From Saccostrea echinata (lineage: Eukaryota), in the NCBI RefSeq assembly GCF_033153115.1, contig NW_026889776.1, positions 2,604,001 through 2,668,000 on the forward strand: a stretch of DNA of 64,000 bases, in the 5' to 3' direction. Numbering within the stretch: position 1 is the first letter of the stretch; every line of letters starts with the position of its first letter. Shown here piece after piece: positions 5,501-41,676 of this stretch. The notes beneath the pieces are model-generated. The model was not told the DNA's origin. It saw only the letters and a list, made by a program, of their open reading frames with translations, and ran no database searches. The translations under genes were made by a program, and so were the position numbers.

Positions 5501-5986
5501 AGAGAGATCCTCTTTTGGTGAAGGCAAGGGAGGGAACAGTAGACCTTTAGTTGACATCCGCCTCCTCCTCTGCAGACGACCAAGACCTCGACTCAACATC
5601 CGAAGATGCTGCTCCCCAGTCACTGACGTCACAGAACTTCGGCGATGTTCGTTACCGATTGAAATGACGGAGCTCCGACGTCGAACCGGTGAAACACGAC
5701 CGGAGCTCCTGATACTGGTTGTGCCAGAGTTTATAGATGACTGCTGTTTGGGATTCTTTTGTGATTCCAAGGGTCTTAGTGAGAATTCTTTTAGCAGAAG
5801 TTTGTACTGTGACTCTGCCTCTGATCTGGCCAAGGAAGTGCCAAGTCTGACGACAAAGTCCGGCGTGTCCCGATCATCGCTTTTGCTATCTGAAAGATTC
5901 TCACCCGGATCCAGAAGATGTGGCACATCCAGACTCTGAATCGGAGTAGATGTCAACAGACGATCCTCTTCAATCGAGTTATCCAT
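1..5986 (-). CDS. Cyclic nucleotide-binding domain protein (CNBD2-like), 12 exons visible, 3' end beyond the window
   Basis: Phase-consistent GT-AG exons: 5489-5986, 5345-5362, 5086-5156, 4550-4667, 4089-4157, 3912-4000, 956-1118, 742-825, 582-646, 417-497, 224-284, <1-129. The joined protein has a cNMP-binding domain (YEARRVILKQGHPPSMFYIMLTG...LSGGDTFGEISLIHGGLRTASI) and the start of a second (FKPDDVIVRDSLESKYIIVVKAGKCKI). The start ATG at 5986 is inferred. Confidence 0.85.
2131..3032 (+). mobile_element. Helentron/HINE-type non-autonomous element with internal tandem repeats
   Basis: 5' hairpin (cccccgctttc acgaaagcgagggg), GTCT-type microsatellite, repeated gaccttgaccttgaagtttgacctac units, 3' hairpin ending in cttgtttt. 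Confidence 0.65.
3100..3827 (+). mobile_element. Second HINE-type element with ~167-bp internal repeats
   Basis: Start ttttatgcccccgcc...ggggcat; three copies of gatgatttttgacagagttatccctcttgaac; end gtcgataacgacacatctagttt. Confidence 0.6.
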
Positions 5987-6549
5987 AACTGAACAAATTT
6001 GTGGATTCTTCCAACAAAAACAGACTAACACTCAGCAGAATCACAGACTTTCTGTTACATATGTTTCTTTTATTTAAGACGTAATTACGGATACTAGATA
6101 AAGACTTTCTCGTTTTGATAAGTAAACATGGTGGTATTTTGTGGAGAGGTTAGGCATTATACAAACCATGGAACAGATTTATTGGTCATTTATAAGAAGA
6201 ATGGTCGAGTTACTCGGGAGAGTGACGGTATTGTTCAATCTTTATCTCTAAGAAATAACAGATTCCCTTCTGAATAGTTCGATACATCAAATAGAAACGT
6301 TTATCAATGAATATCGTGTTTAATCTCTCTTTTTATCGGACTTAAATTGAACTTGGCAGAGTGGTGGCATAGTAAACGAAAAATGTATTGACACTTTCGT
6401 AATCTATCTAACTCTTGCTTTCATTCCGTTTAAATTTTTCAAAGAGCGTTCTCGATTGTTTTTGGTTTATTTTTCCTGTCTTATTTGTTTCCTTTCGTTT
6501 ACCAGGATAGCCACTTCTCGTGAGAAAAATCAATACAGAAGACGTACAG

Positions 6550-9070: not shown

Positions 9071-9469
9071 AAGTGTGTCAATAACAATATTTTTTAGGTC
9101 ATCTACTTTATAATACATGTACTAACTTGAAAAACATAGTTCACATAGCACTGAAACATGTTTGGTAGTATTATCAGAATTTCATCCCTTCATACGTAAT
9201 GCATGCTAAGATCAGGAAGGATTTATTGTTCCTTACAAACTGAACACATATATTCAACCTGTTACAATGATACTACAAATAGAGCATTCTGCAAAGCTTT
9301 TTCCAGTTACTGAGGTAAGCTAAAAATTGCACAAAAAACTCTTATATTTAAATGAATCAGTTTAATAATGCTACACACAAAATGAATGACATGATAAACT
9401 GTTTGGTTTTAAGATTTTAAAAGTTCATCAAAAAAATACAACAAAAGATGAAGACGCAACAGTCATTGC

Positions 9470-12400
9470 TCAGTATCTGCCATGTCTTCCATCCCTTTCT
9501 CTGGACCTTCTCCTCTCTCTACTACGTGACCTTGACCTACGTTCCCGTGACCTTGATCGCCGACGCTCTCTACTGCGGCTCCTGCTTCGTCTTGTAGGTG
9601 GTGATCGTGAACGTGATCTATAAATAAATTTTAATATGTTAGTGTAAATTTATTTGAGTACTTTTTAAATAATCAATAAATTTCAGTTTAACAAACAGAA
9701 GGAACAATCTACTGAGGTTTTCTTACCTTCTAACCTTTCGACGACTTCTGCCATAGAGTTCACGTCTCAATTCTCTGGAAATCGGCTTCAAGTGCATAAA
9801 GTTACAAAAACCACCACGAGTACACTCACTTTAAACAGACAGAAATGTACAATGTTAGTATAATCATAACATTATATGGGCCATGGAAGATATTTACATA
9901 ATAAATTCCTAATTAACCAAAAATAGGCATGACAATAAATCCCTTTGAAATGATTGTCTTACCCCATTTCATACTGCCGACAACATGCTTCTCGGAAGTC
10001 TGTGACTGGTGACAATTCTGCATGAACTGGTCGGCCATTGAACCAGCGATTGTTCAATTCATTCACAGCTTTTTCTGCATCTTCCTCATATCGAAACTGA
10101 AACCAAATTGTTTACATTCAAGGACCATTTTATATGTACTATAATACATGTATTATGTAGTAAGTTTTTTTTTTTGATTTGCTGTAAAAATATTGATGCA
10201 GTACTGTAAACCTGAACAAATCAATGCCATTTGACAGATTTGTTTAGATCATATGCAAGATTTCATGCAGGGGTACAGGCATTTTGTATGTAAGAAAGAA
10301 ACAATGAAAAAATTGGCCTCTGATTCTATAAGTTGCCTTTCTAAACTATCACTAAAAATTTGCTAGACAGTGTTTTCCTCACCTTAACATAGACATTTCC
10401 CACCAAATGGTCACCCAGGTTGTCACAGACATTCATTTCTTCTATCTCTCCATACTGAAAAACAAAAACCACCAATCTATCCCAGCTTACAGCTTCTGTC
10501 TCAGAATAACAATTTATAATTTACAATTTTATAATTCCCAATTTACAAAGATTTAACTATTCCATTTACTTAATACTGCTTCACAGCAGAATAAATATTT
10601 CAAATAAAACTGTTGTCAAAATTTTTATTTCTTTGTACCATACGACACATCAGAATACATAGTAATTACTAACTGTACTGCTTGTATGTGTCCCCTTCAC
10701 AGGTGGATAAATATCAATGAGAACCATCTAGTGACAAAATTTACCTGTGCCAAACACCATATATATGACTACATGTACTCAATTAGGAATCTAGCTCTGT
10801 ATATTTGTGTAATTTCAATGGACTTTAAATATGTATTCTTATGTACGTAACACATTATTAGGGGGCTTCAGGTCCTACCTTCTCCAATTCTACATAAACT
10901 TCTTCAAAGAATTCATCATAAAATTGTTGTAATTCTGTATCGTCCATCTGGACTACAATGAATAGAAAACAGAAAAAAGCTAGAGCTGCCAGAGGAATGG
11001 ACAGATTAGGTCTTATCTCTACATTATAAATCTACAAGAAAAAACATCAGTATTCTCTGCAGTTAAACCAGGCTTTGGTTTGTGAAACATGACATTTTTA
11101 TTTGTTTCAACTTACCTTTCTTATTCTTTGACACAAGCAGAAGCACAGAGGTCATGTTAAAAGAAATGCAATTATTCTACAGGGAAAAAAATATCCCCCC
11201 AGAGAAAGAAGCTCTAAGTAATGCAGTGTGTTTGCCACAAATAAAAATGTCATGAATGGTCTTCTCTGGCAGCACCACTGATTTCTACAAAACAAAAGGG
11301 ACAACACACGTGGCCGACCTTTCACCTTATAAAGGACAGGGCCATTGGTCAAAATCCCATCAAACTTTGTACAATGTTTATATTACCAAAATATAATCTG
11401 CCAAAAATTATTCAGACAATATTCTATCTTTCATGGAGTTGTCTTTTTCTATTTAAATAAACAGATACTGTCATAATCTTGAGGAAAATTGTATGAATTG
11501 GACAAAAAAAAAAATCATTGCACAAAGTTTGCTGTCAAGAACCACCTCCACTTGGAGAGGAGTTAACCCTCAATTGACAAAAAAAAGTAGAGGAGAAATA
11601 GGCCGACATCGAGGCGAGACCCATCTGTTTGTGCTGAATGAAGAGGATGCAACACTGTTACGTTACCTTATCCTCTAACTCAGTAAAAACTTCCTCGAAA
11701 AAATCATCATAATTTTGCTGGCCTTGTACATCATCCACAGGAACTGAAAATCAATGCACAAACACTGACTCCAACTTATTATCATCATCCATGAATACAT
11801 TAAATTCATACATTTATGAGTTGCATGTGCACATAGAATTCATGTGCTTTAGGTATGCTTTTGGCATGAATACATGTGCATGAAGGAAAGTACATGTTCA
11901 ATTTAAGAAAAAAAATTATATGCTGATAGTAAGGATTCTGAGATATATTGAAAGGGCAGATCTGTTAGAGAGCTTTAAATGGTTCATATTTGTTTCTAAT
12001 TGAGGTCCAACAAAGTATATGTTGCAGAGTAACAGATTTAAAGTTTTTTCCCATAATTTTTCTGTCTCCGGGATCACTTCTAAGAATTTAAAATATTTGT
12101 ATTTTCTCCTGAATCTTTTTTTTTTCAATAGATAATGAAATGACTGAAAAATAATCCAGACTTTAAAAATACAGTGCAGGGTTTTATTGCTACCTTTTAG
12201 TCTCTCTTCATATACTGTACCTACTACCATGGGAGTGTCTTTGTCAGTATCAATCTTGGTTTGATTCTGATGTAGACATTTTTTGTATATAATACACCCT
12301 GTTTAATATGGAACAGTGGATGATTCCTTTGACATTTAGAACTTCAATGATTCATTTCTTGCTTCCTGTGTATGATACCTGCCTAAGGCATACCTAGAGC

Positions 12401-15400
12401 ATTGATTCAAAGGCTTTTAAGCTGTACCTATAGATTTTATTTTTTGTGTTTGCTCTAATAAAAACATATGAATATAAATTAAACATGTACTTGTGTCACA
12501 ACAAAAAATACTACATGTATCAGGTATCCATTGTGTGAAGCAATGATAAAATGGATATAAAAAATATTGTAAATTTTCTGACATTAAAAATTTACTTGTT
12601 TTCATATCTATTTAAAATTCAAGTTTTCATTCAAACACAAATTTTAAAGAAAGTTACAGAATCTTAAAGTTGGGCACTGGATGGTAATTGTACGTATCAA
12701 TAGAGGGAATTGTACACTATTTCTAAAACTTACTATGAGATCCATCTGCAGTCAGTGCTGTGTTCTGAGGGTTCATGTACAAATTCTCAATTAGTACTGT
12801 CTATAAAGAGAATAAAACATTGATCTGTCTTCTCAATTTATTCAAACAAAAAGAAAGGAAGTCAAAATTGCAAAATTCAGAGAGTAATTGTACCTACCTG
12901 ACTGAAAGTGGGTTTGTTGTGAAGACGTGAACAGCGTTCTCCATGTCGACAAGCTCCAATTTTGAAGTAAAATGAACAGTTTACCCTGAAATATATTATG
13001 TATCAAATAATGTATATATAAGTGAAAGGAAAATTTCTCAGGGAATGTAATCATATACAATCAAACACTTTGGCCTCAATCAAACTAGATGCTTGGAATG
13101 AATCAACATGACAGAAAACTTCCAACAAATTAATTCAATCACTTTGGCTTCAATCAAACTAGATGCTTGAATGAATCAACATGACAGAAAATTTCCAACA
13201 AATTAATTCAATATAGAACAACATACTCTGCATATTTTTCATAGTTTTATTTGTATCTGGGTGGTGGGTACTCAGAAATTTTTGTAACTTGTGATTGGTC
13301 ATCAACAAAATTATTTTGTTAAAAACTCTGATTCTACACAAAAGTACTGTAAATTTTATATCAAAAGGATGCTAGAGTCCCTCATTGACAACACCTATGT
13401 AGTTCTCACAGACCAGATCTTCTAACAAACTTGGAATTTCTATGGGCACTAATTGTGCTCCTTTATTAACATACTTTTTTAATATTCCTATAGAGCAGAA
13501 TTTATTCAAAAACTTCTGCAGGAGAAGAAAACATTTGCTGTGGCTTCCAACTTGACATTCAGACATATTCAAATATATCCACAAGGTCTTATCAATTAAC
13601 AATATTTACTTCCATTCATATGTTGACTTGATATATTTCAGTGAACTTGAAATACATGTAAAAGACACCACAGAGTCTGCCACATCTGTTTAATATTTGG
13701 ATGTTTACTCACTATAGACTATAAGACCAACTAACGACTAAATTGTATAACAAACAAGATGACTTCAACTTTTACATCCTCAACTTTCCTTATTTATGTA
13801 TCATAAATCTGCTAACAACTGGACATGGTGTTTATGTCTCCCAACTTATTTGATACTTAATTGCATGCTCCAATTACAATCATTTTTTTAAACCAAGGCA
13901 GGCTACTGACAAATAAGTTGATGTTACAGGAATTTTAACAACCTTGTTAAAGTCAAGGATTTATCAGCCTATTTTGGGAAAGGCCATTTTTGGGGAATTG
14001 GGAAAATATTATTGGCTATTTGATGAAATTGGGAAAAATTTAAAATGTTGCTTAAATCATGTATTCAGGTGTTATTCATTTAACATTTCAGCATGAACTC
14101 TAATTTGGGCACCCAAACAGACAATTATAAATATGATCCAACTTCATCACATAAGATCAATTATGAAAAATAGACCAATAAACGTAAAATTGACTTCAAC
14201 GAGTATAAAACATTTACCTATGCAACTTAGGGTAGTACATGTGTGTATGAGATTCCAATTTCGGTCATTACAGAATCTTTTTCTGGAGATTATAAACCTA
14301 CTACAAAAAATTATACAAAGTACACATTTTCTCCGTCCTCTTTTAATATGTATTAAAACATTGAAAATATATTTTTCTATCTGAAATAATGCCTACAGTC
14401 TTTACCATTCACTTGTAGATCAATTGAGTAGGTGGATATAATTTAATAAATCTATACAGTTACACAATATCACCATTTTCAGAAAAAACAGAGGAAATTC
14501 GGATTAAAAGTTGGCGATGTTTTTACAGCATTTTTAAACATGTGTTATGACTGTAGCTTTGCTAAATGAGTTATAGATGAAAATTAAAGACAATCTGACA
14601 ATTTTACTCTGTGTTTTTCCAAGATAATTAAATATAAAAGCATTGTTCACCAATTTGGGAAAAAATACTGCCAAATTGGGAAAAACTGAACTCATTTTCA
14701 ATTGGGATTGGTGCTGAATTTCGGCCCCTGAGAAGGTACTAATAAATCCCTGAAAGTCAGCATTTCGTAAATTCTATGGTCATTATAATGACCTTGTTAA
14801 CAAATATAACCTATCATTGGGTCATATTTTGGCTGACATGTTTCATATCAATTGTTAGGCCTTAGTTTTTACACTAAATTTGATGATGGAATGTTCATCA
14901 ATACATAGGAATCAAAGCAGGTGTGGCTGGTCAACAGTGGATGATTACTCCTCCTTGGCACCTGATTCCACCTCTAGAGGTCCTTGTTTTATGCCCTGTT
15001 CACAGATTTTTATTGTTTGTAGATTTTTTGAGATTGATCACTGTTCGTTATCTTCACCTTTTTCATTTAAAAGAACTAGTCAAAAAAAGTTATTAAGTAA
15101 ACAATATAATAATCTTAATTTTTTTTCCTTAAGATGCCACATTTTTTCCATGAACTACATATTTAGAGACAAACTATAATAATGGTCTTGGGATAGATGT
15201 ATAGGGTAGACTGTCAAATTTCGAAAAATGAATAACAGTTTTTAGCATTAAAAAAAAAAAAAACACTGTATAATTGAACTGTACCATCTTATCAGAAATT
15301 TGTTAGGATGTCTACTGAATTTCAGGGTAACTGATTTACTTTCCAATGTTTTTGACTAATATTTTTGCAGCCTTTTTCATTCATTTTGGGAAGAATTTTA

Positions 15401-16991
15401 CATTGAAATCTTAAAACATTTGTGAAAATGGTTAAGGACATATGCAATGTATTTTAAGCTTTAATTTCTTATTTCCTGTACAATAGCTTCATAAGTCCCA
15501 CACTTATAATGTCAGTATATGATCTTGTGCACCTCTTCTCAACAATTTTTAGGAAATACCAGCTATGATACATTTTTGGTAATATTAGCACATTTTTTTT
15601 TCTTTTTCAAAGAAAGTGGCTACCTTCGGCCACATACCTCAGATCACTTGACTAAACACTATAATCTAGTGTTATGGTGGTTTAATTTAAAAGAATGTAT
15701 CTTGATCTACTAAATATTAACTCATCTCAGGTGGTAAGTGAAGACTGACCCTAACCTCTTGGGTAGGCGCATTTCAAAATGCCTGCTTTTCAGTAGGGAA
15801 ATTGGGACGAATTTAGGTCACCAGCAGATTTTAATTCACCATGTGGGAAAACAAGATATAAAATCTACACCTCCACACCAGTTGTCAAATTGGCTAAATT
15901 GCCAATGAAAAAAACCTTTGAAAAACTCCTAAATTTTAACAAATTTTATATCTTCCCACTATATTCTAAAACTGGCAAGTTCCTTGCCTTAGGTTTAAAC
16001 TGACGAGATTGGCATACACTGGTAAACCTAGATAGAACGTTCTATCGTTAAAATGACATTGTCCTACGGACCCGGTTTAACGATAGAATTCGTTCCGTGT
16101 ATTGGCAATGTAGCAAAATAAACACGGGCGATAACTCGAACTCTGTGCATTTTCTATGAACAATCCAGAGAGTTCCGAATGTCAACATGGCGTTAAATTT
16201 GAAGCGAGGAAAAAATGTTGAGAAAATGAGTTGAATTTTCGTATTTATATGGATTATTTTTTAGGTTAAAAGGCATATACAATCTCAAAAAGGTTTGTTA
16301 TGATTAACTTGGTTGTTATTTTCAGTGCAACTCCTTTTGTATTCTTCAAAATCATTTCGGAGTGGATCCACTCCGATTTGCTACATTGCAAGTATATGGG
16401 ACGTATTCTAACTGTGGTGAGGGCTTGTCCCGAGACACAGTTAGATTATTCTAACTATGGTAAACCTTCCCCCATCAAATAAAGCAACAAGCTGGGTTAC
16501 GAAAGGTCAAATGGTACATTCAGCATAAGCCAGTTTGAAAATTAAGTAAAATCTCTGTGGTTTTATCTAGATTTGGGCTTGGATTTTTATGTCTCTGATA
16601 AAACAAGTAAGACATGATTTCCAAATGATCTGACATCAAAATGGAGTTTCTTAATTCAAGTCATTCTCTAAAACAAACGTAATATACAAACAAAATATAA
16701 GTACACTATATCTATTATGAATCTCAAATTTGTTTTCCTGTTTTTTTTTTCTTTTTTTTACCGTACAGATACAAAATCTGCAGCTAGCTGCAAAAATCAA
16801 TCTGGATCTGGTTTTGTTATATTTAACTAATTTCAGAATTTCATGAAACATCTGTAAAAATGATATTGTAAAATTAACTATAGTTATCATCAAATGCTTA
16901 AAAACAGGCCTTATACTACTGAATATGAAGCTGGAAATTAGCATTACTTGTCCTTTTCTGTGCCAAAAATCGACGCAAGGTACTCAGCCAT
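9470..16991 (-). CDS. U2AF1: Splicing factor U2AF 35 kDa subunit
   Basis: Exons 16948-16991, 12898-12985, 12734-12800, [11667-11743 or 10879-10952], 10383-10454, 9963-10096, 9727-9828, 9470-9617. Protein [44 protein letters not shown]...[25 protein letters not shown]...[44 protein letters not shown] followed by an RS domain (two CCCH fingers, UHM, RS). Confidence 0.98.
10879..10952 (-). CDS. U2AF1: U2AF1 alternative exon 4b (74 nt; (I)[24 protein letters not shown])
   Basis: Polypyrimidine tract plus ttgtag acceptor, AAG|GTAGGA donor, phase 1 to phase 0, open frame, paralogous to exon 4a. Confidence 0.92.
11116..11284 (-). other. Candidate cryptic/poison cassette exon inside U2AF1 (169 nt, or 61 nt from the internal acceptor at 11176)
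   Basis: Acceptors cccttttgttttgtag|11284 and tttttttccctgtag|11176 share a consensus donor AAG|GTAAGT at 11116. The long form has stops in all three frames. Confidence 0.5.
11667..11743 (-). CDS. U2AF1: U2AF1 alternative exon 4a (77 nt; (I)[25 protein letters not shown])
   Basis: ttttcag acceptor, AAG|GTAACG donor, phase 1 to phase 0, open frame, homologous to the UHM acidic helix. Confidence 0.93.
13066..13211. repeat. Tandem duplication of ~74 bp
   Basis: cactttggc(c/t)tcaatcaaactagatgcttg...caacaaattaattcaat occurs twice. Confidence 0.9.
13380..15065 (+). mobile_element. Degenerate Penelope-like RT fragment interrupted by a MITE
   Basis: Remnants [44 protein letters not shown] with frameshifts and stops. 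Confidence 0.65.
13954..14752. mobile_element. MITE with CA(A/G)GGATTTAT termini and 5-bp TSD (hAT5-like)
   Basis: AAAGT|CAAGGATTTAT ... ATAAATCCCTG|AAAGT. Confidence 0.75.
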
Positions 16992-17128
16992 GTTTTCGAC
17001 TAACGCGGAAACTATGACGTAGCACACAAGTGCACAGTTTCCGTGACGTAGTTTGCATTCAGTGTCAGAGAAGGAAGAAGTGGACGATATGAGAGATTGA
17101 TTTTTAGAACAATTACAGTATTTAAACG
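16992..17128. promoter_or_regulatory. Putative bidirectional promoter of U2AF1/PSENEN plus PSENEN non-coding exon 1
   Basis: CpG-enriched stretch directly upstream of the U2AF1 ATG with two TGACGTAG (CRE/ATF-like) sites at 17015 and 17044. Candidate donor ACG|GTGTGT at 17128. The first PSENEN coding exon begins with an acceptor (ttacag|20505), so an upstream UTR exon is needed. Confidence 0.6.
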
Positions 17129-17438
17129 GTGTGTATATTAATTAAAACATTAAATTAATATTTTGTTTATAAAGTACATCAAACCAAGGACTTACAAGGG
17201 ACAATCTTCAGCAATTTTACCAGCAAGATAGTTTTAACATCCCAAATTTGTATCCATTATTCATTTTGGTTTTTAGCCAGTTAAATAAAATGTCTTTTAC
17301 ATTTGACAGCTTGAAAAATCATTTTACATCTAACAGAAGGTATTACCTTTTTATTGCCATGAAGGTAGAGGACTAAATGTTTTTGTCAAGTCTGAGTTAT
17401 ATCTATCTGCGAAAACATTAATCATATTAATATATATC

Positions 17439-17877
17439 TGCAGAACTGTATTGTTATGGTTTTATATTTTAGTCTTTGACCATAACACCACAGATCCCGT
17501 AATGTAAATGAAGTGCAATTTATGGCACAAGATTTTCTGCACACTTTGGGGATGTATTTTGCCAATTTCCAGCAGTAGTTAATCAACGACCCTTCATCCC
17601 CTAATTTTAGACATATTCTATAACCAACCTGTATATTTTATCCACCTCCTAACCCTTTATAGTCATCTCTACAGACCAATAAATTCGCTTGTTGTGAATT
17701 TGTTGTCAGATGGCTAACGAGTTTATTGGTCTGTAGACCAATGCTGGAAAGTGGGGAAATACATCTCCAAAGTGTGCAGAAAATCTTGCTCCATAAATTG
17801 TACTTTATTTACATTACAGGATCTGTAGCAGTATGGTCAAAGACTAAAATATAAAACCATAATGCTACAGTTCTGCA
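17439..17877. mobile_element. Foldback/palindromic MITE in PSENEN intron 1
   Basis: Outer arms of ~140 bp (TGCAGAACTGTA...CCAGCA / TGCTGG...TACAGTTCTGCA) plus inner arms ctacagaccaataaa / tttattggtctgtag. Confidence 0.8.
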
Positions 17878-19773
17878 ACTAGTTAATATATTCAAGATAT
17901 CGGGGTTTTAATTTTAAGCCTGGCATACTAGCCTACCTAGGCAAATTCTTCAATTTTGGCATTTTAATTATATATACCCTTTCCTATGTATTCAGATGAA
18001 AAAAATTGTTGTTAATCTATTTAGTGATGTATTACAACTGAATTTTAACAACATTAAAGTATTTTAAAACAGTTTTGTAAATTTTCTTCATATAAATGAA
18101 TTTTCTTAAAAATGTCACTCAGATATTTTTTAAGTGTACAATGTATGTAGCTGCAAAACTGCATCTCTCTTGGACAGAAAAATTGGACAGACATACCATA
18201 TCTAGTATTTATCTACACTTCTGAAGCTAAAATATATCCTGCTTTAACATTTTAATACCAATTTTACTCATTTAAAAATCTCACAAATAGTAATGGTTTG
18301 AAATGAGAATATGATACAGTCTGAGATCAAGTTTGGAGAAATCTCAGCCCAGATGCTTGCTGCTGTCTTTATTCACTCAATCATATATTTTAATAATGTT
18401 TATTAAGTGCAAAATATTTCTGTAGATTCAAAACTTATCTTTCTGGTGCAGAAAAGAACGAGTGCACTCATGGGCCCCGGTAAAATGTGAAAAAATGAAG
18501 AATCAAATGAAACTTAATTTGCCATCTCAAATCATTAATCGATATCTAAACCATAAGAATCAACAAATTTTATCACTGGTATTCATGAATATACAAAGAG
18601 AAAAGCCATACAATGTGGTAGGGGTCAGTCGACATTCATGATTTTCTATAGTAAATCGACTACGGTCATTCATTTCAAAGCTTTTGTTTTCTGTCAGCCT
18701 AATGTTGTACAAACTTGTGCGAATGACAAAAAACGCATTATACATTTATAAAACTTGTGTGAAAGTAGGAAATTTGTACAAGATTAGGCTGGTACTTAAA
18801 ATATTAAAAATGTATGTAAAGTTCAACATTTTTCCTATAGCAAGCAAGAGCTATTTACCTGTATGACCTGTGTTGAACCCACCTGTGGAATAAATTATTT
18901 AAAATAACGGTAGTCACATGAGTTCTACCCAGGTAAACATTCCACAAATGTGCTCACTGTAAAACATAGCCACGTTTTATATCATTATATCAAAGTCGTA
19001 CCGCTTAGAGATGTTGTATGTATTTGGTTTTAGGAACACGGGAGGGTTAGGAGTGTTTAGTCGTTAAAATGTCATCATACATAAAAGTGTCAAACATTTT
19101 TAACATTCATGCAAGACAATGGTACCGGTATTGAAAGCCACCTAAATACAATTTTTTCTTTTCAAAATTTAAAGGAACTAATGTTAATACTTATTGCATT
19201 TTTTCAAATGCAAGCATGCAAATTTCTTAGTTTGATCACTATGGCTACAGGCATCTATAAACTTCATTCGATTTTTTACAGGTAAAATAGCGCAAGAAGT
19301 ATTCGGCAAACGCGCCCGTCAATGATCCACCATCAGATTGTTCAAGTGTCAATTTAAATGTCTCCTCCCCTTGATTTAAATAAACGAAACTCAAAATAGG
19401 TTCGATACGACTTTTCCGGATTTGGGGTATCTATAGGCATTAAAACTCTTCATTTGTTTTAAATCCATGCTGATTTAGGTGACATTTTAGCGTAATTTTT
19501 AATTAGAAATATCCACTTGTGTTTAACTATTACCAAAAGAGAACGATTTGGTCATATATTCTAAAGTAAAACAGCTCTGAAAAAGGGCCCATTAAGCATT
19601 GCTTAAGTGCACTTGTCCTTTGGACAGACATACCAGACCTGGGACAGAAAATTCAAACAGACATACCATCTCTGGTATATCTCTCTGAATTTTCTGTCTC
19701 AGAGAGCCACAGTTAGCAGCTAAAATATATGTTGCTTTAACATTTTAATTTAATTCCAATTTTACTCTTTTAA

Positions 19774-20225
19774 AGCTATATATAATTTATTCCTATTCAT
19801 GGTATGCATAACTATAAAGAAAAGATACTCTATGGTCATAGTCCTGGTGTAGATGAAGATTTAAAGCTATATATGGTGTATCTGAGCTAAAAAATAAAAA
19901 TACGAGATTGAGTGAAGATCGAGATTGAGTGAAGATAAAATGATATATGTTATTTACATTCAAATTTAAATTTTCACGGATTTTAAACATGAATAACCTC
20001 ATGTTTCTATTGTCAAACTGACCTTAAATTATGTCTGTTATTTAAATCCGGAGGCAGTAAATAAATCAGTTTTTGTTTTAAATTTCTAATATCTTTGAAA
20101 CGTGATTGATTTAAATTGTGTAATTTACAGGAAAGTCCTATCTTTACTTAAAGTAATAAAACAACTAGAAAGATCTTTTTAATTTTAGTTAGTCTGAACT
20201 TATAAAAGATATGCCATATATGACT
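19774..20225 (+). mobile_element. Kolobok-like MITE (copy 2), TTAA TSD
   Basis: TTAA|AGCTATATAT ... ATATATGACT|TTAA. A paralogous empty site lies at ~18272. Confidence 0.8.
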
Positions 20226-20513
20226 TTAAAAATCACACACACACACACACACACACACAAATGGTTTGAAATGAGAATGTAATACAGCCATTGTTACAAG
20301 GCAAGTTGGAGAAATCTCAGCCCCAGATGCTTGCCGCTATCTTAACAAGTCCAAAATGTATCAGGGCTGTTACACTACTAGATATATGATATGTCTAAGT
20401 TAATGTCTTCTGGAACATATAATCTTACTGAGGTTGGAGAAGAAAACCAGTCCATTTATTGCATAGCAATATTTGCATTTTAATTAAACTCTTTTATGTT
20501 ACAGTGATTAACA

Positions 20514-21210
20514 ATGGATTTGGCAAAAGTGAAAAATGAAGACAAATTAGACTTGTGCAGAAAGTATTACATTGGTAAGTCTTTAAAAAAAATGAGAGAT
20601 ATCTTTTGCATCAATCTATTTTTGATTTCAAAAACCGTATTTGCTCTCAAGTAAGCTCCCTCCTTTTTTTTCTAATGTAAATTAATGTGCTAGTAAATCA
20701 TTTATTTTTTAACCAGGTGGCTTTGCTTTCCTGCCTTTTTTATGGTTTATCAACTCTGTCTGGTTCTTCAGGGAGGCCTTCCTAAAACCAGAATACCAAG
20801 AACAAAAACAAATCAAGACATGTAAGTTAGGAACCTGTTAGACCACAGGGGTTCTTCAACATTTATTTTATGATGCAAATTTCAAGAAAAGCTGTTTAAT
20901 CAAGAAAACCAAAATAAATTTTGAATTTGTTAAACCAAATCATGTTCTTATATATAACTCATGAACATGTAGAATAATAATCCTTGTAACATCTTTATAA
21001 AAATTATTTTTAAATATACCTATAAAATATTACTGATCCTGAAAGAATGTATATGATACTATGTTTTCAGATGTAATACGGTCAATGATTGGAACAGTGA
21101 TATGGATAGCCATTATAACAACTTGGGTGGTTCTTTTCCAGACCAATAGGGTGGCATGGGGGATCACTGCAGACAAAATATCATTCCTTATTCCTACAGG
21201 AATACCATGA
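20514..21210 (+). CDS. PSENEN: Gamma-secretase subunit PEN-2 (101 aa)
   Basis: Exons 20514-20574, 20717-20821, 21071-21210 give [60 protein letters not shown]...[23 protein letters not shown] at 21733. Confidence 0.97.
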
Positions 21211-21833
21211 AAATGGTAACATTGTAAGCTAGCTTATCTTTGCTTCCCTGAATTTTTTAATGGATTTAACAAGTGCCATTGATACCAGTTTTCTATGTTA
21301 CTTGATACATGGATTTTTTTTTATTTTAGGATAATTCAGAACCATGCAAACTCATAAAGAAGTATCATTGAATGATTCTCTAATAAGAATAGCCAAATTC
21401 AAAACAGTCAGTTACATTCTTATCATTGAAGATCTCTTTGTCTAAAGGACGACATGTAGTCTGCTTCAAAATGTAAATACAATTATAAATGTGTTTAAGA
21501 GGTGTATTTATTTTTAAACTTGGTGCTCGTGAACAAGTTTACAAGTGATCTGTGTTGTACACTTGGCCTAGAAGACATAGATCATTTGAGAAGTCTTTTG
21601 CCAAAGCTGTATACATTGTATCTTAATAGTGAAATGTAATATGTGTGTGAAAAGCTCATATAAATGTAAACGTAGTTGCCAAGAGAGAGAGAGAGAGAGA
21701 GAGAGAGAATAGCTTTATGTAATTTCTACTAGAATAAAAGACAGATTGAACTGTTATAAAATATTACAGATGTTGTGTACGACCTTTTTCATTTCTTATT
21801 CAATCATATATGGTCTTACTTAATTATGCACAT

Positions 21834-25913: not shown

Positions 25914-26994
25914 CTGCCGTCATGAGAAAAGGGCCCTTATCTTTTGACGTCACAATGCCCAGAAAACGACGTCAAAGTCGCGGTATTGTGCGTTTCATGA
26001 ACAAGAAATGAAATTGGATTTCCATGTGTTACAAGAAAAACATTAAAATCATACGAAATTTGATGCGGAAATTTTTAATGAATAATATAATTACACACTA
26101 GAACGTGTATTTATTAATTACTTTGTTTGAGTATTTAACTTGATATCACATAATTAAGCTAAACGCGACATTGAACTCATTTTTAATTACTACTCCGTCG
26201 ACAATTTATAGCGATGTGTTTCTCTGACAGGCCCGTAGGAAGCAATTTCACTTTGGGTAGGGTGGGGGGGGGGGCACAGCGATACATTTTCAGTGGAGGG
26301 GGCACTATCAACTACCAAACAAGCAAAAAAAAGGTCATCAGACGTTTTTATTGAGGGGGCACAAGCATACAGTATCTATGTTTTCTATAGTAATCTATAT
26401 ATCGGCAAAATTTATGGGGCACGGCCCCCGTACCCCCCCCCCCCCCCTCCGGTTCCTACGGCCATGTCTGATGCATCACTAAAGATACTGAATATTTGTT
26501 GTCGGAGCAATTAGCAAATGTTTAAATTTGACTAATATTCAGTACACTAAGTCTTTTTAAATGGTATTCTACAAACACGTATATATTTTTGTTCAGAGAG
26601 AGAGAGAGATCAATGCATATATACACTTCTTTATTCTAAAAAAAAATACCTTCATGTAAAATGAATTTAACCATTTTAACACATAGTTAATCATATCCAT
26701 ATGCGCAGTTAGACCAGCTCAGGGTGAAGCGTCAATATCCAAATGTGTGTTGGGGGGGGGGGGGCAGAGATCATTGAAAAGGGAAAAAAAAATCTGCGAA
26801 TAAAAAAGCAATCGGTAAAAATTCATTCTAAAAAGAGAACCTTTCTTTTTTATGCGATGGGGGGTATAGATACTGGTATCATGGGAGATTTTCGGACTTC
26901 CTACTACAACGAATGAGGGGGGGGGGGCAAACGGCCCCTATATAGATAATTCTTTGTTAAATTCACTGCAAGAGAATATGCAACGGAAGAGGGG

Positions 26995-27031
<37 letters not shown>

Positions 27032-30000
27032 CCTTTTACGGGCCTGTTAAGTCTTGCAAGATATTCGGTTTCAATTTCAAATAGATTTCATAAAAAATGT
27101 AATTCAACTGTATTTCATTTCGCTCAGAAAAGTCCGTTTAGTATTTATATATATAACAAAAGAGCCAAGAGCAGTACAACCATCTCTTTGATCAAACTAT
27201 ACAATATATACATAAACCATAATGATTTTTTTTTTTAGATTAACGGCCCTTTTAAGAAATGATGAACGATAATTAATGTGTTCAAGTGATACAACAGTAG
27301 TGTCTAGGACACAGGTGCCTCATAATAATTTTTAAAAAAAAAGGATCAAAGTACAGAAGCATTTATAACCTCTTTTGATTATGTGTGATTTGCTAAAAAG
27401 TAAGAAATTGGCAAAAAATTAAATTTTCATGTAAGGAATAAACTTTCATAAAACAATCCTTTGACATCATTATTTGCCTCTTTTTTATGTTTCTACATCA
27501 TATCTAAGACAGGTGAAAAATTGAATTGTATAAACAAAGGAAACTTAATTATTTAAACATTTTATTAAAGTGTTCAAAAAGGCAAAGAAAAATCCCCTTG
27601 AAGGTAGTGATCAGATTTTTTTTTATCAATTATGATTTTTTTTTAATGAAACTTTAAAAAAAAGTTTACACATCATGGCGTATCTGAATTTATTTCCCAT
27701 TTGAATTTTTCGGTGATACAGAAAATACATGAGGTGTTATTATCCCCTCGTAACAAAGTCATAGAGGATAAAGTAACGTGCGTGTTTGTGGATGAGTGAA
27801 TGCGTGCTTATATCCCAAAATATTTTTTTAGGTCGGGATCGATGTGCTACTTTTGCGAGGTGATTCTCCGCTTTAATTGCACGAGGAACCCTTCTGGGAC
27901 ATCTATATAGATCTTTTTATATTTTAATATTACAACTGCTTTATATCTTTTATAAATTGAAATAGAGTATTAATAATAAAAAGAATACCTTGTGTGGAAT
28001 TCACAAGTATTAATTTTTCGACTGAATAAAGAAAGGTTCCTAGATCCTGTCTAGACCCCCACCCCTCCCTTTACGAAATTACTAGATCGGCTCTAATATA
28101 GTATGAAAAAAAGTATGCGGCTCCCCTTATGAATAATTACATAATCTAGTTGCTTGGAAGAAAAAAAAATCAACTTTATATGTGTTAAAACGATTAAGGT
28201 TATTTTAAAAATGTAGTATTTTAAAGAATGCTTGTAAACTGAATTTGACACACGCGACGTCATTACATTTTCAGTGAGTAACGTCAACGTTGTTTTGAAA
28301 CGGCCTTACTAAAATGCTCATAAAATACTGAAAAGTGAGATATTCTTAAAAATTGTGTATATTTGCATTCAGAAAGAGTCAGGCTATCAAAATTTATCAG
28401 AAAGTCAATTTGTGAAATTTTGACCTTAAGGGCCCTTTTCTCAAGACGGCAGTCATATATTTTACCATGTAAAACTTTAATCTTCTACTGTGGCCCCACT
28501 CTATCCCCGGAGGCCATGTTTGAACGAACTTGAATGTACACTTACTGGGGATGCTTGCATATCATTTTGAATAATCATGGCCCTGCTGTTCTTCATCAGA
28601 AGATTTTTTAGATTTTTTTTTTCTGAATTTATTTTTTTCCATAAAGAGCTTTGATCTATTCTGGTTCCATTCTACCCCTGAAGGCCATGATTTGAACAAA
28701 TTTGAAACTACATTACCTGAAGATGCTTGCATATTAATATAACTAATCATTGTCCTGTTCTTCATCTTCAGAAGATTTTTAAAGATTTTTTTTCTCTGTT
28801 TTCCTATGTAAAGCTTTGATCTCCAATTGTAGCCCCACCCTACCCTGGAGGCCATGATTTAAAGAAACTTGAATCCTCACTACCTGAGGATACTTGTATA
28901 TAAATATGTCTAATCATGGACTTATTGTTCTTAAGAAAATTTTAAAAGATTTTTTTAATATCTTTTCCCTTGTTAAATCTTGCTCTCCTACTGTGTCCAA
29001 ACACTACCCCTGGGGTCCACAATTTTAACAAATTTAAATCTACACTATGTCAGGAAGCTTTCAGATAAATTTCTTCTTTTCTAGCCAAGTGGTTCTTGTG
29101 AAGATTTTATTAAAACACTGACCCTAGTTTTGCCTTTTCTTGATTTTGGACACAACTCTTTCATAAGGACACTCTTTGAATCCCATTTACCCAAGGATGC
29201 TTTGTGGCAATTTTGGTTAAAATTGGTTCAGTGATTCGATCTAGAGAAGAAGTCAAAAATGTAGAAAGTCAACAAACAAACAGACAGATGGATAATTGAC
29301 AAACTTTGATCAGAAAGGCTCACTTGAGTCTTTTGGTAAGGTGAGCTCAAAATGTTTTGAAGGACAATGAAAACATAAAAAATTTGTCTTGTGCATTATG
29401 CACTGTAGATACTTCCTTTTCTTCAATGACGATACATGTTTAACTGCAAGCATTCTCAAGGTTTAGTTGTTACATCACTTACCTATTTGTTTGGGGTATG
29501 GAAGGTTCAATTCCTTCATTATCCTCACAAACTCTTCTTTAGACTTGGTCAAACGAGGATTCATGGTTTTTTCCTCAGCCACTGTTGTGCTAGTTTGACC
29601 TATGTAGAAATATATCATTTTAGAAATCGAGAGAATTGTGGAAAATCTTTATAGAAATCGAGAGAATTGTGGAAAATCATTATAGAAATAGAGAGAATTG
29701 TGAGAAAATTGCACTCAAATGCTAGTTTTCCTTCTTCCATTACATTTGTTTGGATTTATTCATTTTCAAATTACTGGTCTGTAGCTGTATTCAGCAAACA
29801 CCACTTACGGGTATATAAGAATCACCCTATCTGACCACCAAAATGTGTCTGGCCATTACAAAGAAATATTGGAGATGTAATGGTTTGGGCCATGGATATC
29901 AGCCTGGGTAGCTCAGTTGGTAGAGCACCTGACTAGTGATGCAGTTGTCCCGGGTTCGATTCCCGATCCAGCCATACATTTTCTCCTTTCCTGTTACAGA

Positions 30001-33000
30001 TTTGGTGCCTTTGACCACCCCTGGACTTGCAGGTGAAAGTCCTGCCAGGGGCTAATAAGAACTTGGGTTGTGTCTTCGAGGGCGAAGACAATTTAAGGCT
30101 CGAGGGAGGGATGTAATGGTTTGGGGGTTACAATTTTAATTTGTGGGGGTCTTTTTTCATGGATAACCAGAATTTATTGGTTTGTGGGGAACTCCAATAT
30201 GCAGAACTCAGCAGATCATTCAAAGAATTGATACTTTTGCAAAGTTTGTTCGTGTGGATGTAAAATTTGTGGGTAAGGGTGACTCATGAAATCCACAAAT
30301 ATTGGTCCCTCATGAACAATGATGATTCCACAGTATCATTTTTTTCTGGATTATATCTTTGTTATTGAGACATTGGAAGTTCAAACTGACAAAGAGGTTG
30401 CTTGTGACATGAAAATGTTCTTGCTGGTCTAGCTGGAATGTTTTTGAAGACCTTTTCATTTATAGTATTATAATTAAAACAAAATTGTTTTCTTTAACCC
30501 ATAATGCCTTGTGAACATGACCAAGGGCTTCTTAAGGTAGTACACAACACCCATGAAATGTTTTAATGCATAACTTATAAAGTACACCAGAAAAAAAGAA
30601 TAATTTCACTATAATGTCAATAATGAAGGATCTTTGTAAGAAAAATAATAAGCTGTGACATGTTTCCACCATATTTTTTGAAGAAAATTAGAGACATCCT
30701 ATATATTGGTCATTCAGGAGCCTACATTTTGGATTGTGTTTGTGCCATCTACATGCCATATGACTGTCTGCTTTTAAATGCAAAATAACTTTTGATCCAT
30801 TTATACCAGAGACCTGATATTTTGACATATTTATAAGGAGTCTCCATTCTTTTTTTTTTACAATAAAGGTCAAGGTCATATTAAGAGGTCAAAGGTCAAA
30901 TATAGTGACATCATCTACTGAATCTTGACAGTTTGCAATAGATCAATTGGTTATTTTTAAATAATAAATAAATAATCTCAGGTCCACTGTCTGATTTCAT
31001 AATCTTTTTTCTGATAGACTATATTTCAGACTATTTTGGCAAAAAATTTCTGGTTGAATTCCTTTCATATTAAATATAAAAAGAGATTTTGTATCCTAGA
31101 ACAAAATATCAAAGTTTAAACAAAATTGAATTTGAGGAAAAATTTTTTCCTATCTATTGTGTACTACCTTAAGAAGATTGAAATGTAGCAACCTGGTTAT
31201 CATTTTGTGAGCTGTGTCTCTAGTTTTTATTTAGAATAGATTATAAAAAAATCCTCTGTAAACAACACACATAGATATCTCCAATTACGCGGCTATGTTA
31301 AGGCTGTCCGAAGGTTTATATGCATTAGAAATACACTATTATATTTTGAGCTAGATTTTTATTTCAGTTTGTAATCTATGTATACATGTGCAGTAAATTT
31401 GTGAAGAGAGTTTAATAACACATTGAGAAAAAGCATGTTTGTGATGTCACATGACTGTGTTGATCATGTGACGGACACTTTTAAATTTTCCTAATTGTTG
31501 CACAAAAATCCCATCAGCACAAGTGAAAAACAAATTATTGAGAACAGTTTGTTACATAAATCAATTAAACATATTCTTGGGAATATATATTATAGTGCTG
31601 GGGGGCAAGTATGAGTTTTACTTCTTAAGAAAATATTTCACGAGAAATTCAACTTACCCACATACAAGGGAGCATTTTCCACTCTTCATTGCAATTTATA
31701 CAAAATAGGATAAATTACATACAATCCCCCAGCAAAATTCAGTTAGAGGACATACTTCTCTAGTAGATTCACATAGAATATCTTCAGGTTATCTTTATTA
31801 ATCACTTGTGCCAGTCTAATATATGCATGATTTATAAATTCTAACTCTGTCTATGGACGTGTAAGGGGAGCGTTTCATATTTATTTATTGCTATTGTTTG
31901 AATACGTAGATTTATCAGAAAGAGAAAGGAATAACGATATTGTATTGCAAATAATCACCATCATAACAGCACATAGAAACTTTAACCAACAATTCAGAAA
32001 CTTGATTTAAACATCAACGTCGAAATAAAATCTACATGCCTTGGGAAGGAATGTAAAAGTTATGACACTTTCCCTGTCATGACTGCTCAAGTTTGCAGTG
32101 ACTTGACGTCATATTCTATTATGACGTCATATCTTGGTAGTTCAGAGAAGTAACAATGGCTGGTACACTGTGATATTTATCGGACAGCCTTATCCTAGCT
32201 GTGTAATTCAAAACAACAGTTAAAAATATCTGTCAGTTTTCATTGCTTTCATATACCTGTGTAGTCATGGGCAGGAAACAGAGTATAGTTTGGAGGAAGG
32301 GAGAAAATCTTCTCATGAACAGAGTTGTACAAAGTCTCCGAGCTTCCTGTATGAATAGCAAAAAGAAATAATCTGTACATGTATATCAAAACTCTATCGG
32401 TATATGAATAACCGTTTTTGTAGAGATTTTTTGGATGTACTGTTACCATATTAATTTGCTGTATATTTTACCTTCCTGGAAATCTGTTCTGCCACAACCT
32501 CTGACCAGTACAGCATCTCCAGTAAAAGCCATTGCTTTCTCATGCCATACATAGGTGACACACCCTGCAGGAAATCCATAACAAATACCCGGTATATATT
32601 ACAGTGTATATTCTTTATCATGTAGTTTCATTGGTGATGAAACCCCAAATCTCTCTGTTTGAAAATTGAATAGTAGGTATGGAAACATTAGACACCCACA
32701 CACATACACATAATTACTCTTAGAAAGGCTTTACAATACTAATGCATGTAGTTGCATACATTTGTAATTGCATACATTTGATTAATTACAGTCTATACAT
32801 CCTTAATATAAAATTAAAAAAAAAAAGAAAAACAAAAAAATTTAGTAAAATTTAAGCACTTTCATTTCAAGCGCTTTTACAATAAGAAACGTAGCAACAT
32901 AATGTCATGTCATAATAAGCAGAATATTAAACACAAGAGTCTATAGTGACCACATAGTTAAACAATGCAGGAAAACTGTAGAATGAAAATATTGATGTAC

Positions 33001-40779: not shown

Positions 40780-41448
40780 TTGCCGAGAAATTATAACAGT
40801 CAAGTTCAAGAATGCTTAAAAAAAATAAATAGCAATTACATGTGATATATTGTATCTATCATATATTATTGGAAATCACTAAGCACCTTTTCCTTTATGC
40901 GCTATTTCATCAATATCTAAGACATGTGGGTCAACATGCTCAATTTTACATGTCAGCCACTTTTATGAAGGTCTATGTCTCTTCTATGCTCTTCTTTTTT
41001 CCCTAAGTGGGGGACACAAATTCTCTGAATTAGCTTGTTAAATATAAGGTAAATGACGTCATTTTTTTAAATAGTAATGAAAACAACATATAAGTTCATT
41101 ACTACATTTAGCAAAGAAGAAATAAATTTTAAAATATAATTCAGAGAGTAATGCGGCATGTTTACCGATTATGGTGATGGAGTTAGGGTAGTAGGGGATA
41201 CCATAAATGTGTGACACCACAAGGTTTTGTCAATATATTACCCACAAAAAATTACTGCACGTTCTTCTGATTTTATTATTGTTAACCATTATTTACTCTA
41301 TAAATTTAAATCCCGATATTAGAAATTTATTATATAATTTTTCTGCATGTTCTGTCTAGAAAATTAATTACAGGCCTAATTAGTACGGAGGATATTGCAT
41401 CAGATTCAGAGGCATATATTCTTATGTTTCTGCTCTATCTTTCTAGTG

Positions 41449-41676
41449 ATGGACAGTCAGGTGGCACGAGATGGCCGTCTGATGGAGTTAGTGGATGAGA
41501 AATGGAGAGAAGACAAACTCCCAATGGAGGAAGTCGCTGTGCCGCAGATGGAACTCCCAGAAATAGAACCAGACAATGGACCAACCAATGAGACCTTAAA
41601 AGAGCAGGAACAAAAGTGGACTGACTTGGCTTTGTCATCACTGCATGATCAGCCTCCTGCGACCACTAGTAACTGA
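41449..41676 (+). CDS. ANAPC13: Anaphase-promoting complex subunit 13 (75 aa)
   Basis: MDSQVARDGRLMELVDEKWREDKLPMEEVAVPQMELPEIEPDNGPTNETLKEQEQKWTDLAL matches APC13. Single coding exon; AATAAA at 41995. Confidence 0.95.
   Translation: MDSQVARDGRLMELVDEKWREDKLPMEEVAVPQMELPEIEPDNGPTNETLKEQEQKWTDLALSSLHDQPPATTSN

What the first reader, a model, noticed from the sequence alone, without database searches (positions are those of the whole stretch)
16948..21210. U2AF1-PSENEN head-to-head pair mirrors human U2AF1L4-PSENEN
Seen: divergent genes with a compact CpG-rich spacer holding two TGACGTAG motifs 29 bp apart. Known: human PSENEN and the U2AF35 paralogue U2AF1L4 share a bidirectional promoter at 19q13. 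Inference: this arrangement predates the protostome-deuterostome split, and U2AF1L4 rather than U2AF1 may hold the ancestral locus. It would couple a splicing factor to a gamma-secretase subunit.
Basis: partly seen in the sequence, partly recalled or inferred. Interest (0 to 1): 0.7.

Follow-up and report, generated by a model that had tools for sequence, protein, structure and literature searches.

The report
Ancient U2AF35–PEN-2 head-to-head gene pair
In an oyster genome the gene for a core splicing factor (U2AF35) and the gene for a gamma-secretase subunit (PEN-2) start back to back within about 66 bases, a neighbourhood that is likely as old as bilaterian animals and that human U2AF1L4 likely inherited, and the oyster splicing-factor gene also uses one or the other of two old copies of one exon.

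Summary
RNA contigs of 4 of 4 runs splice a non-coding PEN-2 exon ending at 17128 to the coding exons at 20505, so the two covered 5' ends lie at most about 66 nt apart. Neighbouring record numbers place the two genes side by side in 9 of 17 invertebrate species examined, amphioxus included; orientation there is not shown. Mussels, a crinoid and an annelid seem to have lost the link. The human PSENEN-U2AF1L4 bidirectional promoter is in print, so U2AF1L4 likely keeps the old neighbour; a tree could not date the paralogue split. The twin TGACGT motif is real but recurs at four other places in the window. A functional coupling of splicing and gamma-secretase is unsupported. This is one more ancient head-to-head pair, a known class. 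Beyond the finding: U2AF35 has a duplicated exon 4, used one at a time in RNA and shared by bivalves, a snail and octopus; jawed vertebrates duplicated the neighbouring exon instead.

The parts
16948..16998 (-). U2AF35 exon 1 (ATG at 16991; RNA cover reaches at least about 16998)
16999..17064 (.). Spacer of at most about 66 nt between the RNA-covered 5' ends; likely bidirectional core promoter
   Evidence: side lengths 52 and at least 63; function inferred
17015..17022 (+). CRE-like TGACGTAG, copy 1
17044..17051 (+). CRE-like TGACGTAG, copy 2
17006..17044 (.). 8-bp inverted repeat with a CGGAA core (arms 17006-17013 and 17037-17044); ETS-like by recall
17065..17128 (+). PEN-2 non-coding exon 1 (5' end at or before 17065 in run X5; 17085-17102 in the other three); holds a 3-codon upstream ORF
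17129..20504 (+). PEN-2 intron 1, 3,376 nt, GT..AG
   Evidence: 4 of 4 runs
20505..20574 (+). PEN-2 exon 2 (ATG 20514)
20717..20821 (+). PEN-2 exon 3
21071..21223 (+). PEN-2 exon 4 (stop ends 21210; protein 101 aa)
21330..21675 (+). PEN-2 exon 5, 3' UTR only
12898..12985 (-). U2AF35 exon 2 (zinc finger 1)
12734..12800 (-). U2AF35 exon 3, 67 nt, single copy; the exon that is duplicated in jawed vertebrates
   Evidence: PMC5224494 Introduction
11667..11743 (-). U2AF35 exon 4a, 77 nt, one of two alternative copies
10953..11666 (-). Intron between 4a and 4b, 714 nt, about 90% alike in organism C; predicted stems in 10985-11333
10879..10952 (-). U2AF35 exon 4b, 74 nt, the other copy
10673..10744 (-). 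Candidate stop-bearing (poison) cassette exon, 72 nt, spliced at low depth in organism C
10383..10454 (-). U2AF35 exon 5
9963..10096 (-). U2AF35 exon 6
9727..9828 (-). U2AF35 exon 7
9198..9617 (-). U2AF35 exon 8 (RS domain, stop, 3' UTR)

Best explanation
U2AF35 and PEN-2 are transcribed away from each other from a spacer of at most about 66 nt that likely works as one bidirectional housekeeping promoter, and the pair is likely inherited from the last common bilaterian ancestor. Shown: the gene models, the spliced 5' exon of PEN-2, the short gap, single copy per haplotype. Inferred: one nucleosome-free core with CRE-like and ETS-like sites fires both ways; because a break inside so short a shared core would silence an essential gene, the pair separates only rarely, whatever the two proteins do. 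After the vertebrate genome duplications one copy likely kept both genes (U2AF1L4-PSENEN) and another kept only the splicing factor (U2AF1). Separately, U2AF35 mRNA takes exon 4a or 4b (shown), which would swap the long helix A of the UHM domain; taking both at the usual sites or neither breaks the frame, so decay of such mRNA likely helps keep the choice exclusive.
For: 5' exon joint in 4 of 4 runs. U2AF35 and PEN-2 each match only at this locus and its 99.3-99.9% identical second haplotype. Record numbers 1-3 apart in 9 of 17 invertebrate species: Sinanodonta, Solemya, Dreissena, Mercenaria, Pecten, Mizuhopecten, Ylistrum, Argopecten, Branchiostoma belcheri (KAI8505392/393, one scaffold); 13 apart in B. 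floridae. Human pair with a validated bidirectional promoter (PMC6121907 passages). 5'-5' pairs are the commonest and best kept class of ancient linked pairs (PMC3514665 passages). U2AF26-type proteins keep amphioxus/hagfish states at 2 columns where all 9 jawed-vertebrate U2AF1 rows differ. Exon 4: joints 3-4a, 4a-5, 3-4b, 4b-5 in X2 and X5, 4a-5 and 4b-5 in X6 and X18, no 4a-4b or 3-5 joint in any of 4 runs; helix 71-89 of the model lies inside exon 4.
Against: Record order is a proxy and gives no orientation or distance. 7 of 17 species do not show adjacency: Mytilus x3 (124-155 apart; a caspase model is fused directly upstream of PEN-2 in M. edulis), Antedon (166), Owenia (1,164), Pinctada (2,142; tags may not be positional), Tubulanus (different scaffolds). 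Eight of the nine positives are bivalves, so the deep claim rests on three lineages. No PEN-2 beside U2AF35 in 10 metagenome loci with 2.1-10 kb upstream. The tree leaves U2AF26 unresolved and does not reject a late duplication. Contigs cannot show a start site. No promoter assay. Three database models include both exon copies in frame through a second acceptor (P0017, P0021, P0022).
Confidence: 0.78

Rival explanations
1. The two genes are only old chromosome-mates that came together separately in bivalves, amphioxus and mammals.
For: Same chromosome-length record without adjacency in Antedon, Owenia, Pinctada and two Mytilus species; orientation unknown in amphioxus.
Against: Even among about 1,000 genes of one linkage group a given pair is adjacent about 2 times in 1,000 (my estimate); three separate meetings, two of them shown head to head, are very unlikely.
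Confidence: 0.06
2. The pair is kept because splicing and gamma-secretase output must be co-regulated.
For: Human genes are co-expressed and promoter mutations affect both (PMC6121907 passage citing Didych 2013).
Against: The same passage calls the functions divergent. The link looks lost in mussels, a crinoid, an annelid and the metagenome loci, and the main vertebrate U2AF35 gene lies elsewhere.
Confidence: 0.1
3. Two separate one-way promoters merely abut, or the twin motif is repeat-derived background.
For: Four other TGACGT pairs in the window; true starts not mapped.
Against: About 66 nt leaves little room for two independent promoters; direct plus inverted 8-mer repeat in 0.1% of shuffles of the core (region chosen after seeing it); spacer identical in both haplotypes.
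Confidence: 0.12
4. On the paralogues: U2AF1 arose by a small-scale duplication out of the PSENEN-linked locus in the jawed-vertebrate stem, so U2AF1L4 is the parent locus in the strict sense, not a genome-duplication twin.
For: In this oyster CBS and LIN37 lie on other contigs, so no wider shared block was seen; U2AF26-type and U2AF1 share states against hagfish.
Against: Recalled, not tested: 19q13 and 21q22 share other paralogue pairs (HSPB6/CRYAA, APLP1/APP). Ohnologue lists could not be read.
Confidence: 0.25

Closest known systems
Human PSENEN-U2AF1L4 bidirectional promoter (Didych et al. 2013, not held; seen only through passages of PMC6121907 and PMC6642334)
   Same: Same two gene families, head to head, small shared spacer.
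   Different: Invertebrate, single U2AF35 gene with a full RS tail; spacer sequence not compared; no functional test here.
Conserved ancient microsyntenic pairs, 5'-5' co-regulated class (Irimia et al. 2012, PMC3514665; abstract and passages), e.g. HSPE1-HSPD1, HNRNPA2B1-CBX3
   Same: Unrelated neighbours, divergent, under 1 kb apart, shared by protostome and deuterostome lineages.
   Different: Not named in the main-text passages searched; the list of nearly 600 pairs could not be read, so it may already be there.
Vertebrate U2AF1 exons 3 and Ab (PMC5224494, Introduction and passages; origin in jawed vertebrates per PMC4494069 passages)
   Same: Tandem duplicated UHM exon used one at a time; both or neither breaks the frame.
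   Different: Molluscs duplicated the next exon (77/74 nt, helix A itself, copies about 58% alike) and keep exon 3 single; vertebrates duplicated the 67-nt exon with seven differences.

Membership tests
U2AF35 (U2AF small subunit) | Two CCCH zinc fingers flanking a UHM/RRM, RS tail | tested here: met
   Exon 6 is 100% identical to oyster U2AF small subunits; those match zf-CCCH x2 and RRM_1 and PDB 1jmt, 4yh8; RS tail
PEN-2 | PF10251 over cut-off, about 101 aa, intact frame | tested here: met
Bidirectional promoter pair | Divergent genes with 5' ends under 1 kb apart | tested here: met
   At most about 66 nt between RNA-covered ends
Bidirectional promoter pair | Mapped start sites | not testable with these tools
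   Only assembled contigs were served
Bidirectional promoter pair | One element drives both directions; co-expression | not testable with these tools
   Both genes are covered in the same 4 runs, but contig depth cannot give levels; no reporter
Conserved ancient microsyntenic pair | Adjacent in several distant lineages | tested here: met
   Bivalves and amphioxus by record order (9 of 17 species), human by literature; the paper's own lineage-count rule was not applied
Conserved ancient microsyntenic pair | Orientation conserved | tested here: inconclusive
   Shown in this oyster; in print for human; record numbers carry no strand
2R ohnologue pair U2AF1/U2AF1L4 | Split before the jawed-vertebrate radiation, on paralogous segments | tested here: inconclusive
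   Polytomy; late split not rejected, p-AU 0.50; lists unreadable
Mutually exclusive homologous exons | Tandem homologous exons, same phase, each joined to both flanks | tested here: met
Mutually exclusive homologous exons | No double inclusion or double skipping | tested here: met
   None among the 6 joints listed for 4 runs; contigs drop rare forms, and three database models include both
Mutually exclusive homologous exons | One ancestral duplication: like copies closer across species than unlike copies within a species | tested here: met
   a-a 82%, b-b 86%, a-b within species 58.5% (9 species pairs); each type one group, 91/84 and 93/91, 25 columns only
Vertebrate U2AF35a/b switch | Duplicated exon is the 67-nt exon 3 | tested here: not met
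   Exon 3 is single here; exon 4 is doubled

The most novel reading that the evidence does not exclude
The small U2AF subunit has evolved a two-way exon switch in its UHM domain at least twice: jawed vertebrates swap exon 3, molluscs have swapped helix A through exon 4a/4b since their stem (chiton carries the derived b type), and a nemertean may swap exon 3 a third time. Molluscs would then build two U2AF heterodimers with different splice-site preferences from one gene, which sits on a promoter shared with PEN-2 since the bilaterian ancestor, while the supposedly minor paralogue U2AF1L4 is the positional heir of that locus.
Probability: 0.4. Interest if true: 0.65.

Novelty: new member of a known kind. 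Interest (0 to 1): 0.47.

Why it matters
It would extend one of the few experimentally validated human bidirectional promoters back to the bilaterian ancestor and argue that U2AF1L4 is an old positional heir of the U2AF35 locus, not a late insertion. That is a modest gain: nearly 600 such pairs are known. The exon 4a/4b switch is the more surprising part, because a core spliceosome protein would have acquired a mutually exclusive UHM exon independently in molluscs and in vertebrates, giving a natural second test of what U2AF35 isoforms are for.

Tried and rejected
Relatives of this genome are not held, so synteny was read from record numbers. The one metagenome scan used a pattern that could not match genes with the intron after the first exon, my error; its 74 loci are transcripts or genes without that intron, and the 10 with 2.1-10 kb upstream hold no PEN-2: weak, unnamed negatives. 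The corrected pattern found nothing in prokaryote or viral collections, as expected. LIN37 and CBS are not near the pair in this genome. Steric block of exon 4a-4b joining by a distant branch point: not supported, intron 714 nt and AG-free zones of 19 and 25 nt. Docking/selector pairing: best duplex -28.4 against -21.2 to -23.7 kcal/mol in 5 shuffles; 10940-11340 folds at z -3.8 (region picked after the scan), but 300-nt windows reach only z -1.9, as does a window of intron 3; 11 of 17 listed organism-C differences fall in unpaired places and none in the 18- and 10-bp stems, but only part of the differences was printed; left as a lead. Tree of U2AF26-type proteins: unresolved; the rows are unnamed and were labelled from recall. 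Literature: ten searches found no report of the pair outside mammals or of a mollusc U2AF35 exon switch; supplements of PMC2871058 and PMC7530604 hold no PSENEN/PEN-2 row; those of PMC3514665 and PMC3514672 could not be read, and PMC13450315 and PMC4504502 gave only small files without gene lists. Earlier scan findings: none on this pair.
Full report
Source and genes. The window is from an oyster: U2AF35 exon 6 is 100% identical to Ostrea, Crassostrea/Magallana and Saccostrea proteins and the PEN-2 exons are 90-96% identical to a Crassostrea PEN-2. U2AF35 lies on the minus strand (first coding exon 16948-16991, last exon to about 9.2 kb), PEN-2 on the plus strand (101 aa, 20514-21210). Each matches only here and at a second contig that is 99.3-99.9% identical over about 16 kb, read as the other haplotype.

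The spacer. The start codons are 3,522 bp apart. RNA contigs of 4 of 4 runs laid (2 studies; their RNA status is the tool's guess, but they join GT..AG exons) splice 17128 to 20505, and 3 of 4 join U2AF35 exon 1 to exon 2. Cover reaches about 16998 on the U2AF35 side and at least 17065 on the PEN-2 side, leaving at most about 66 nt. Contigs cannot show a start, so true starts can only be further in. Both TGACGTAG copies and an 8-bp inverted repeat with a CGGAA core lie in the gap; in 5,000 shuffles of 17000-17064, two TGACGT sites arise in 0.6%, any direct 8-mer repeat in 1.9%, direct plus inverted in 0.1% (the region was chosen after seeing it). Against a special role: TGACGT sites pair within 40 bp five times among 21 sites in the window, 0.27 expected. 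The CRE and ETS labels are recalled.

Age of the pairing. No animal relatives are held. I compared record numbers of the two proteins in annotated genomes, a proxy for gene order that gives no strand. Of 17 invertebrate species with both proteins, 9 have numbers 1-3 apart: Sinanodonta (ACJMK2_025353/4), Solemya (ScPMuIL_003252/3), Dreissena (KAH3702539/40), Mercenaria (XP_045209965/68), Pecten (XP_033757801/03), Mizuhopecten (OWF41648/9), Ylistrum (XP_060076280/1), Argopecten (XP_069115239/41; species inferred from the number series and record length) and Branchiostoma belcheri (KAI8505392/3, one 4.9-Mb scaffold). B. floridae is 13 apart; other amphioxus record sets are 5, 15 and 61 apart. Seven do not show it: three Mytilus (124-155 apart), Antedon (166), Owenia (1,164), Pinctada (2,142) and Tubulanus (different scaffolds). 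In M. edulis a gene model fuses a caspase directly upstream of PEN-2. Hagfish had no numbers to compare. Ten metagenome loci with 2.1-10 kb upstream have no PEN-2, from a scan whose pattern missed intron-bearing genes. The human pair and its validated promoter are in print (passages of PMC6121907, and PMC6642334; the original paper is not held). Bivalves, amphioxus and human make a bilaterian origin likely, with repeated loss.

Which human gene is the heir. U2AF1 of a skate and a catshark is on another chromosome than PSENEN, and a fish model fuses U2AF1 to CBS, the neighbour of human U2AF1 (recalled). If U2AF1L4 were a late copy of U2AF1 it would have had to land by chance at the old site. 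Six unnamed proteins that I take from recall for U2AF26 form one group (98/90) inside a jawed-vertebrate polytomy; they keep outgroup states at two columns where all nine U2AF1 rows differ and share one state with tetrapod-like U2AF1; a late split is not rejected (p-AU 0.50; exon 3 removed, 29 rows). A salamander paper names U2AF1L4 as a candidate gene (PMC8867708 passages), a name only. So position favours U2AF1L4 as keeper of the old neighbour; genome duplication is the likely route but was not shown.

How it likely works. A core this short, shared by two essential housekeeping genes, is hard to break without silencing one; that suffices to keep the pair. This is the commonest class of ancient linked pairs: 54.8% of them are 5'-5' in human against 26.7% of controls (PMC3514665 passages). 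Nothing here links the two proteins' functions.

A second feature, outside the given coordinates. U2AF35 has two tandem copies of exon 4: 4a (11667-11743, 77 nt) and 4b (10879-10952, 74 nt), 714 nt apart. Either keeps the frame; both at the usual sites, or neither, give early stops. Runs X2 and X5 show all four single-inclusion joints at similar contig depth; X6 and X18 (organism C) show 4a-5 and 4b-5; none of the four shows 4a-4b or 3-5 among all six joints listed. X1 and X3 showed only 4a in the truncated table. Database proteins carry both types in oysters, a pearl oyster, mussel, scallop, clam, unionid, the snail Gigantopelta and Octopus; the chiton record has type b. Identity is 82% among a, 86% among b and 58.5% between a and b of one species; each type is one group in a 25-column tree (32 rows chosen from named records), so one duplication in or near the mollusc stem is likely. 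Ten non-mollusc rows show one form each, which does not prove absence. In a predicted model of the O. edulis b isoform (mean pLDDT 61, 85-90 over this part) a helix at 71-89 lies inside exon 4, matching the long helix A of the UHM. Jawed vertebrates duplicated the 67-nt exon 3 instead (PMC5224494 Introduction; PMC4494069 passages), so the two switches are independent. Three database models include both copies in frame through a second acceptor, so exclusivity may leak. The intron between the copies is about 90% alike in organism C; a folding lead is weak. A 72-nt stop-bearing exon between 4b and 5 is spliced at low depth in organism C. PMC8373072 (passages) does not mention U2AF1; PMC12533970 (passages) is unrelated. 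Twin exons in RNA-binding-protein genes recur in this scan's unchecked notes, so the design is not rare.

Novelty and score. Ten searches found neither the invertebrate pair nor the mollusc exon switch; PMC2871058 (abstract, supplements) and the supplement of PMC7530604 have no such row. The pair list of PMC3514665 and ohnologue lists could not be seen and may already hold it; the isoforms are in database annotations. Verdict: real, well supported, a new member of a known kind; interest 0.47, most of the surprise coming from the exon switch.

Noticed in passing
window 11667-11743 and 10879-10952 (-): Duplicated, mutually exclusive exon 4 of U2AF35, shared across molluscs; a different exon from the vertebrate switch.
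   Followed up: yes
window 10673-10744 (-): 72-nt exon with an in-frame stop between exons 4b and 5, spliced at low depth in organism C runs X6 and X18; candidate poison exon.
   Followed up: partly
window 11116-11284 (-): Strong acceptor and donor around a stop-bearing stretch inside the conserved 4a-4b intron, enclosed by a predicted 18-bp stem; no RNA joint seen.
   Followed up: partly
proteins P0107, P0108 (Lineus longissimus): Two isoforms differ only within the exon-3 stretch: possibly a third, separate exon duplication in U2AF35, or two alleles.
   Followed up: no
window 16027-16457: About 430 bp present here and absent from the second haplotype; likely a mobile-element insertion in U2AF35 intron 1.
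   Followed up: no
window 21224-21329 (+): Intron in the PEN-2 3' UTR, 13 nt after the stop codon.
   Followed up: no
window 17089-17100 (+): Three-codon upstream ORF in the PEN-2 leader exon.
   Followed up: no
window 32446-33938 (-), 41380-41673 (+), 44087-49135 (-): Neighbours: metallo-beta-lactamase-fold exons (ETHE1-like by recall), Apc13, and a class II tRNA synthetase; the first two are divergent with a CpG cluster near 38.2 kb between them.
   Followed up: partly
window 25945-25972, 28255-28284, 32104-32127, 60757-60772: Four further close pairs of TGACGT sites; unexplained, perhaps a repeat or a common regulatory unit.
   Followed up: no
proteins P0278, P0280 (Mytilus edulis): Caspase-PEN-2 fusion models, probably merged neighbours; suggests the U2AF35 link is broken in mussels.
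   Followed up: partly
window 5453-6031 (-): 193-codon CpG-rich open frame without a Pfam match, downstream of U2AF35.
   Followed up: no
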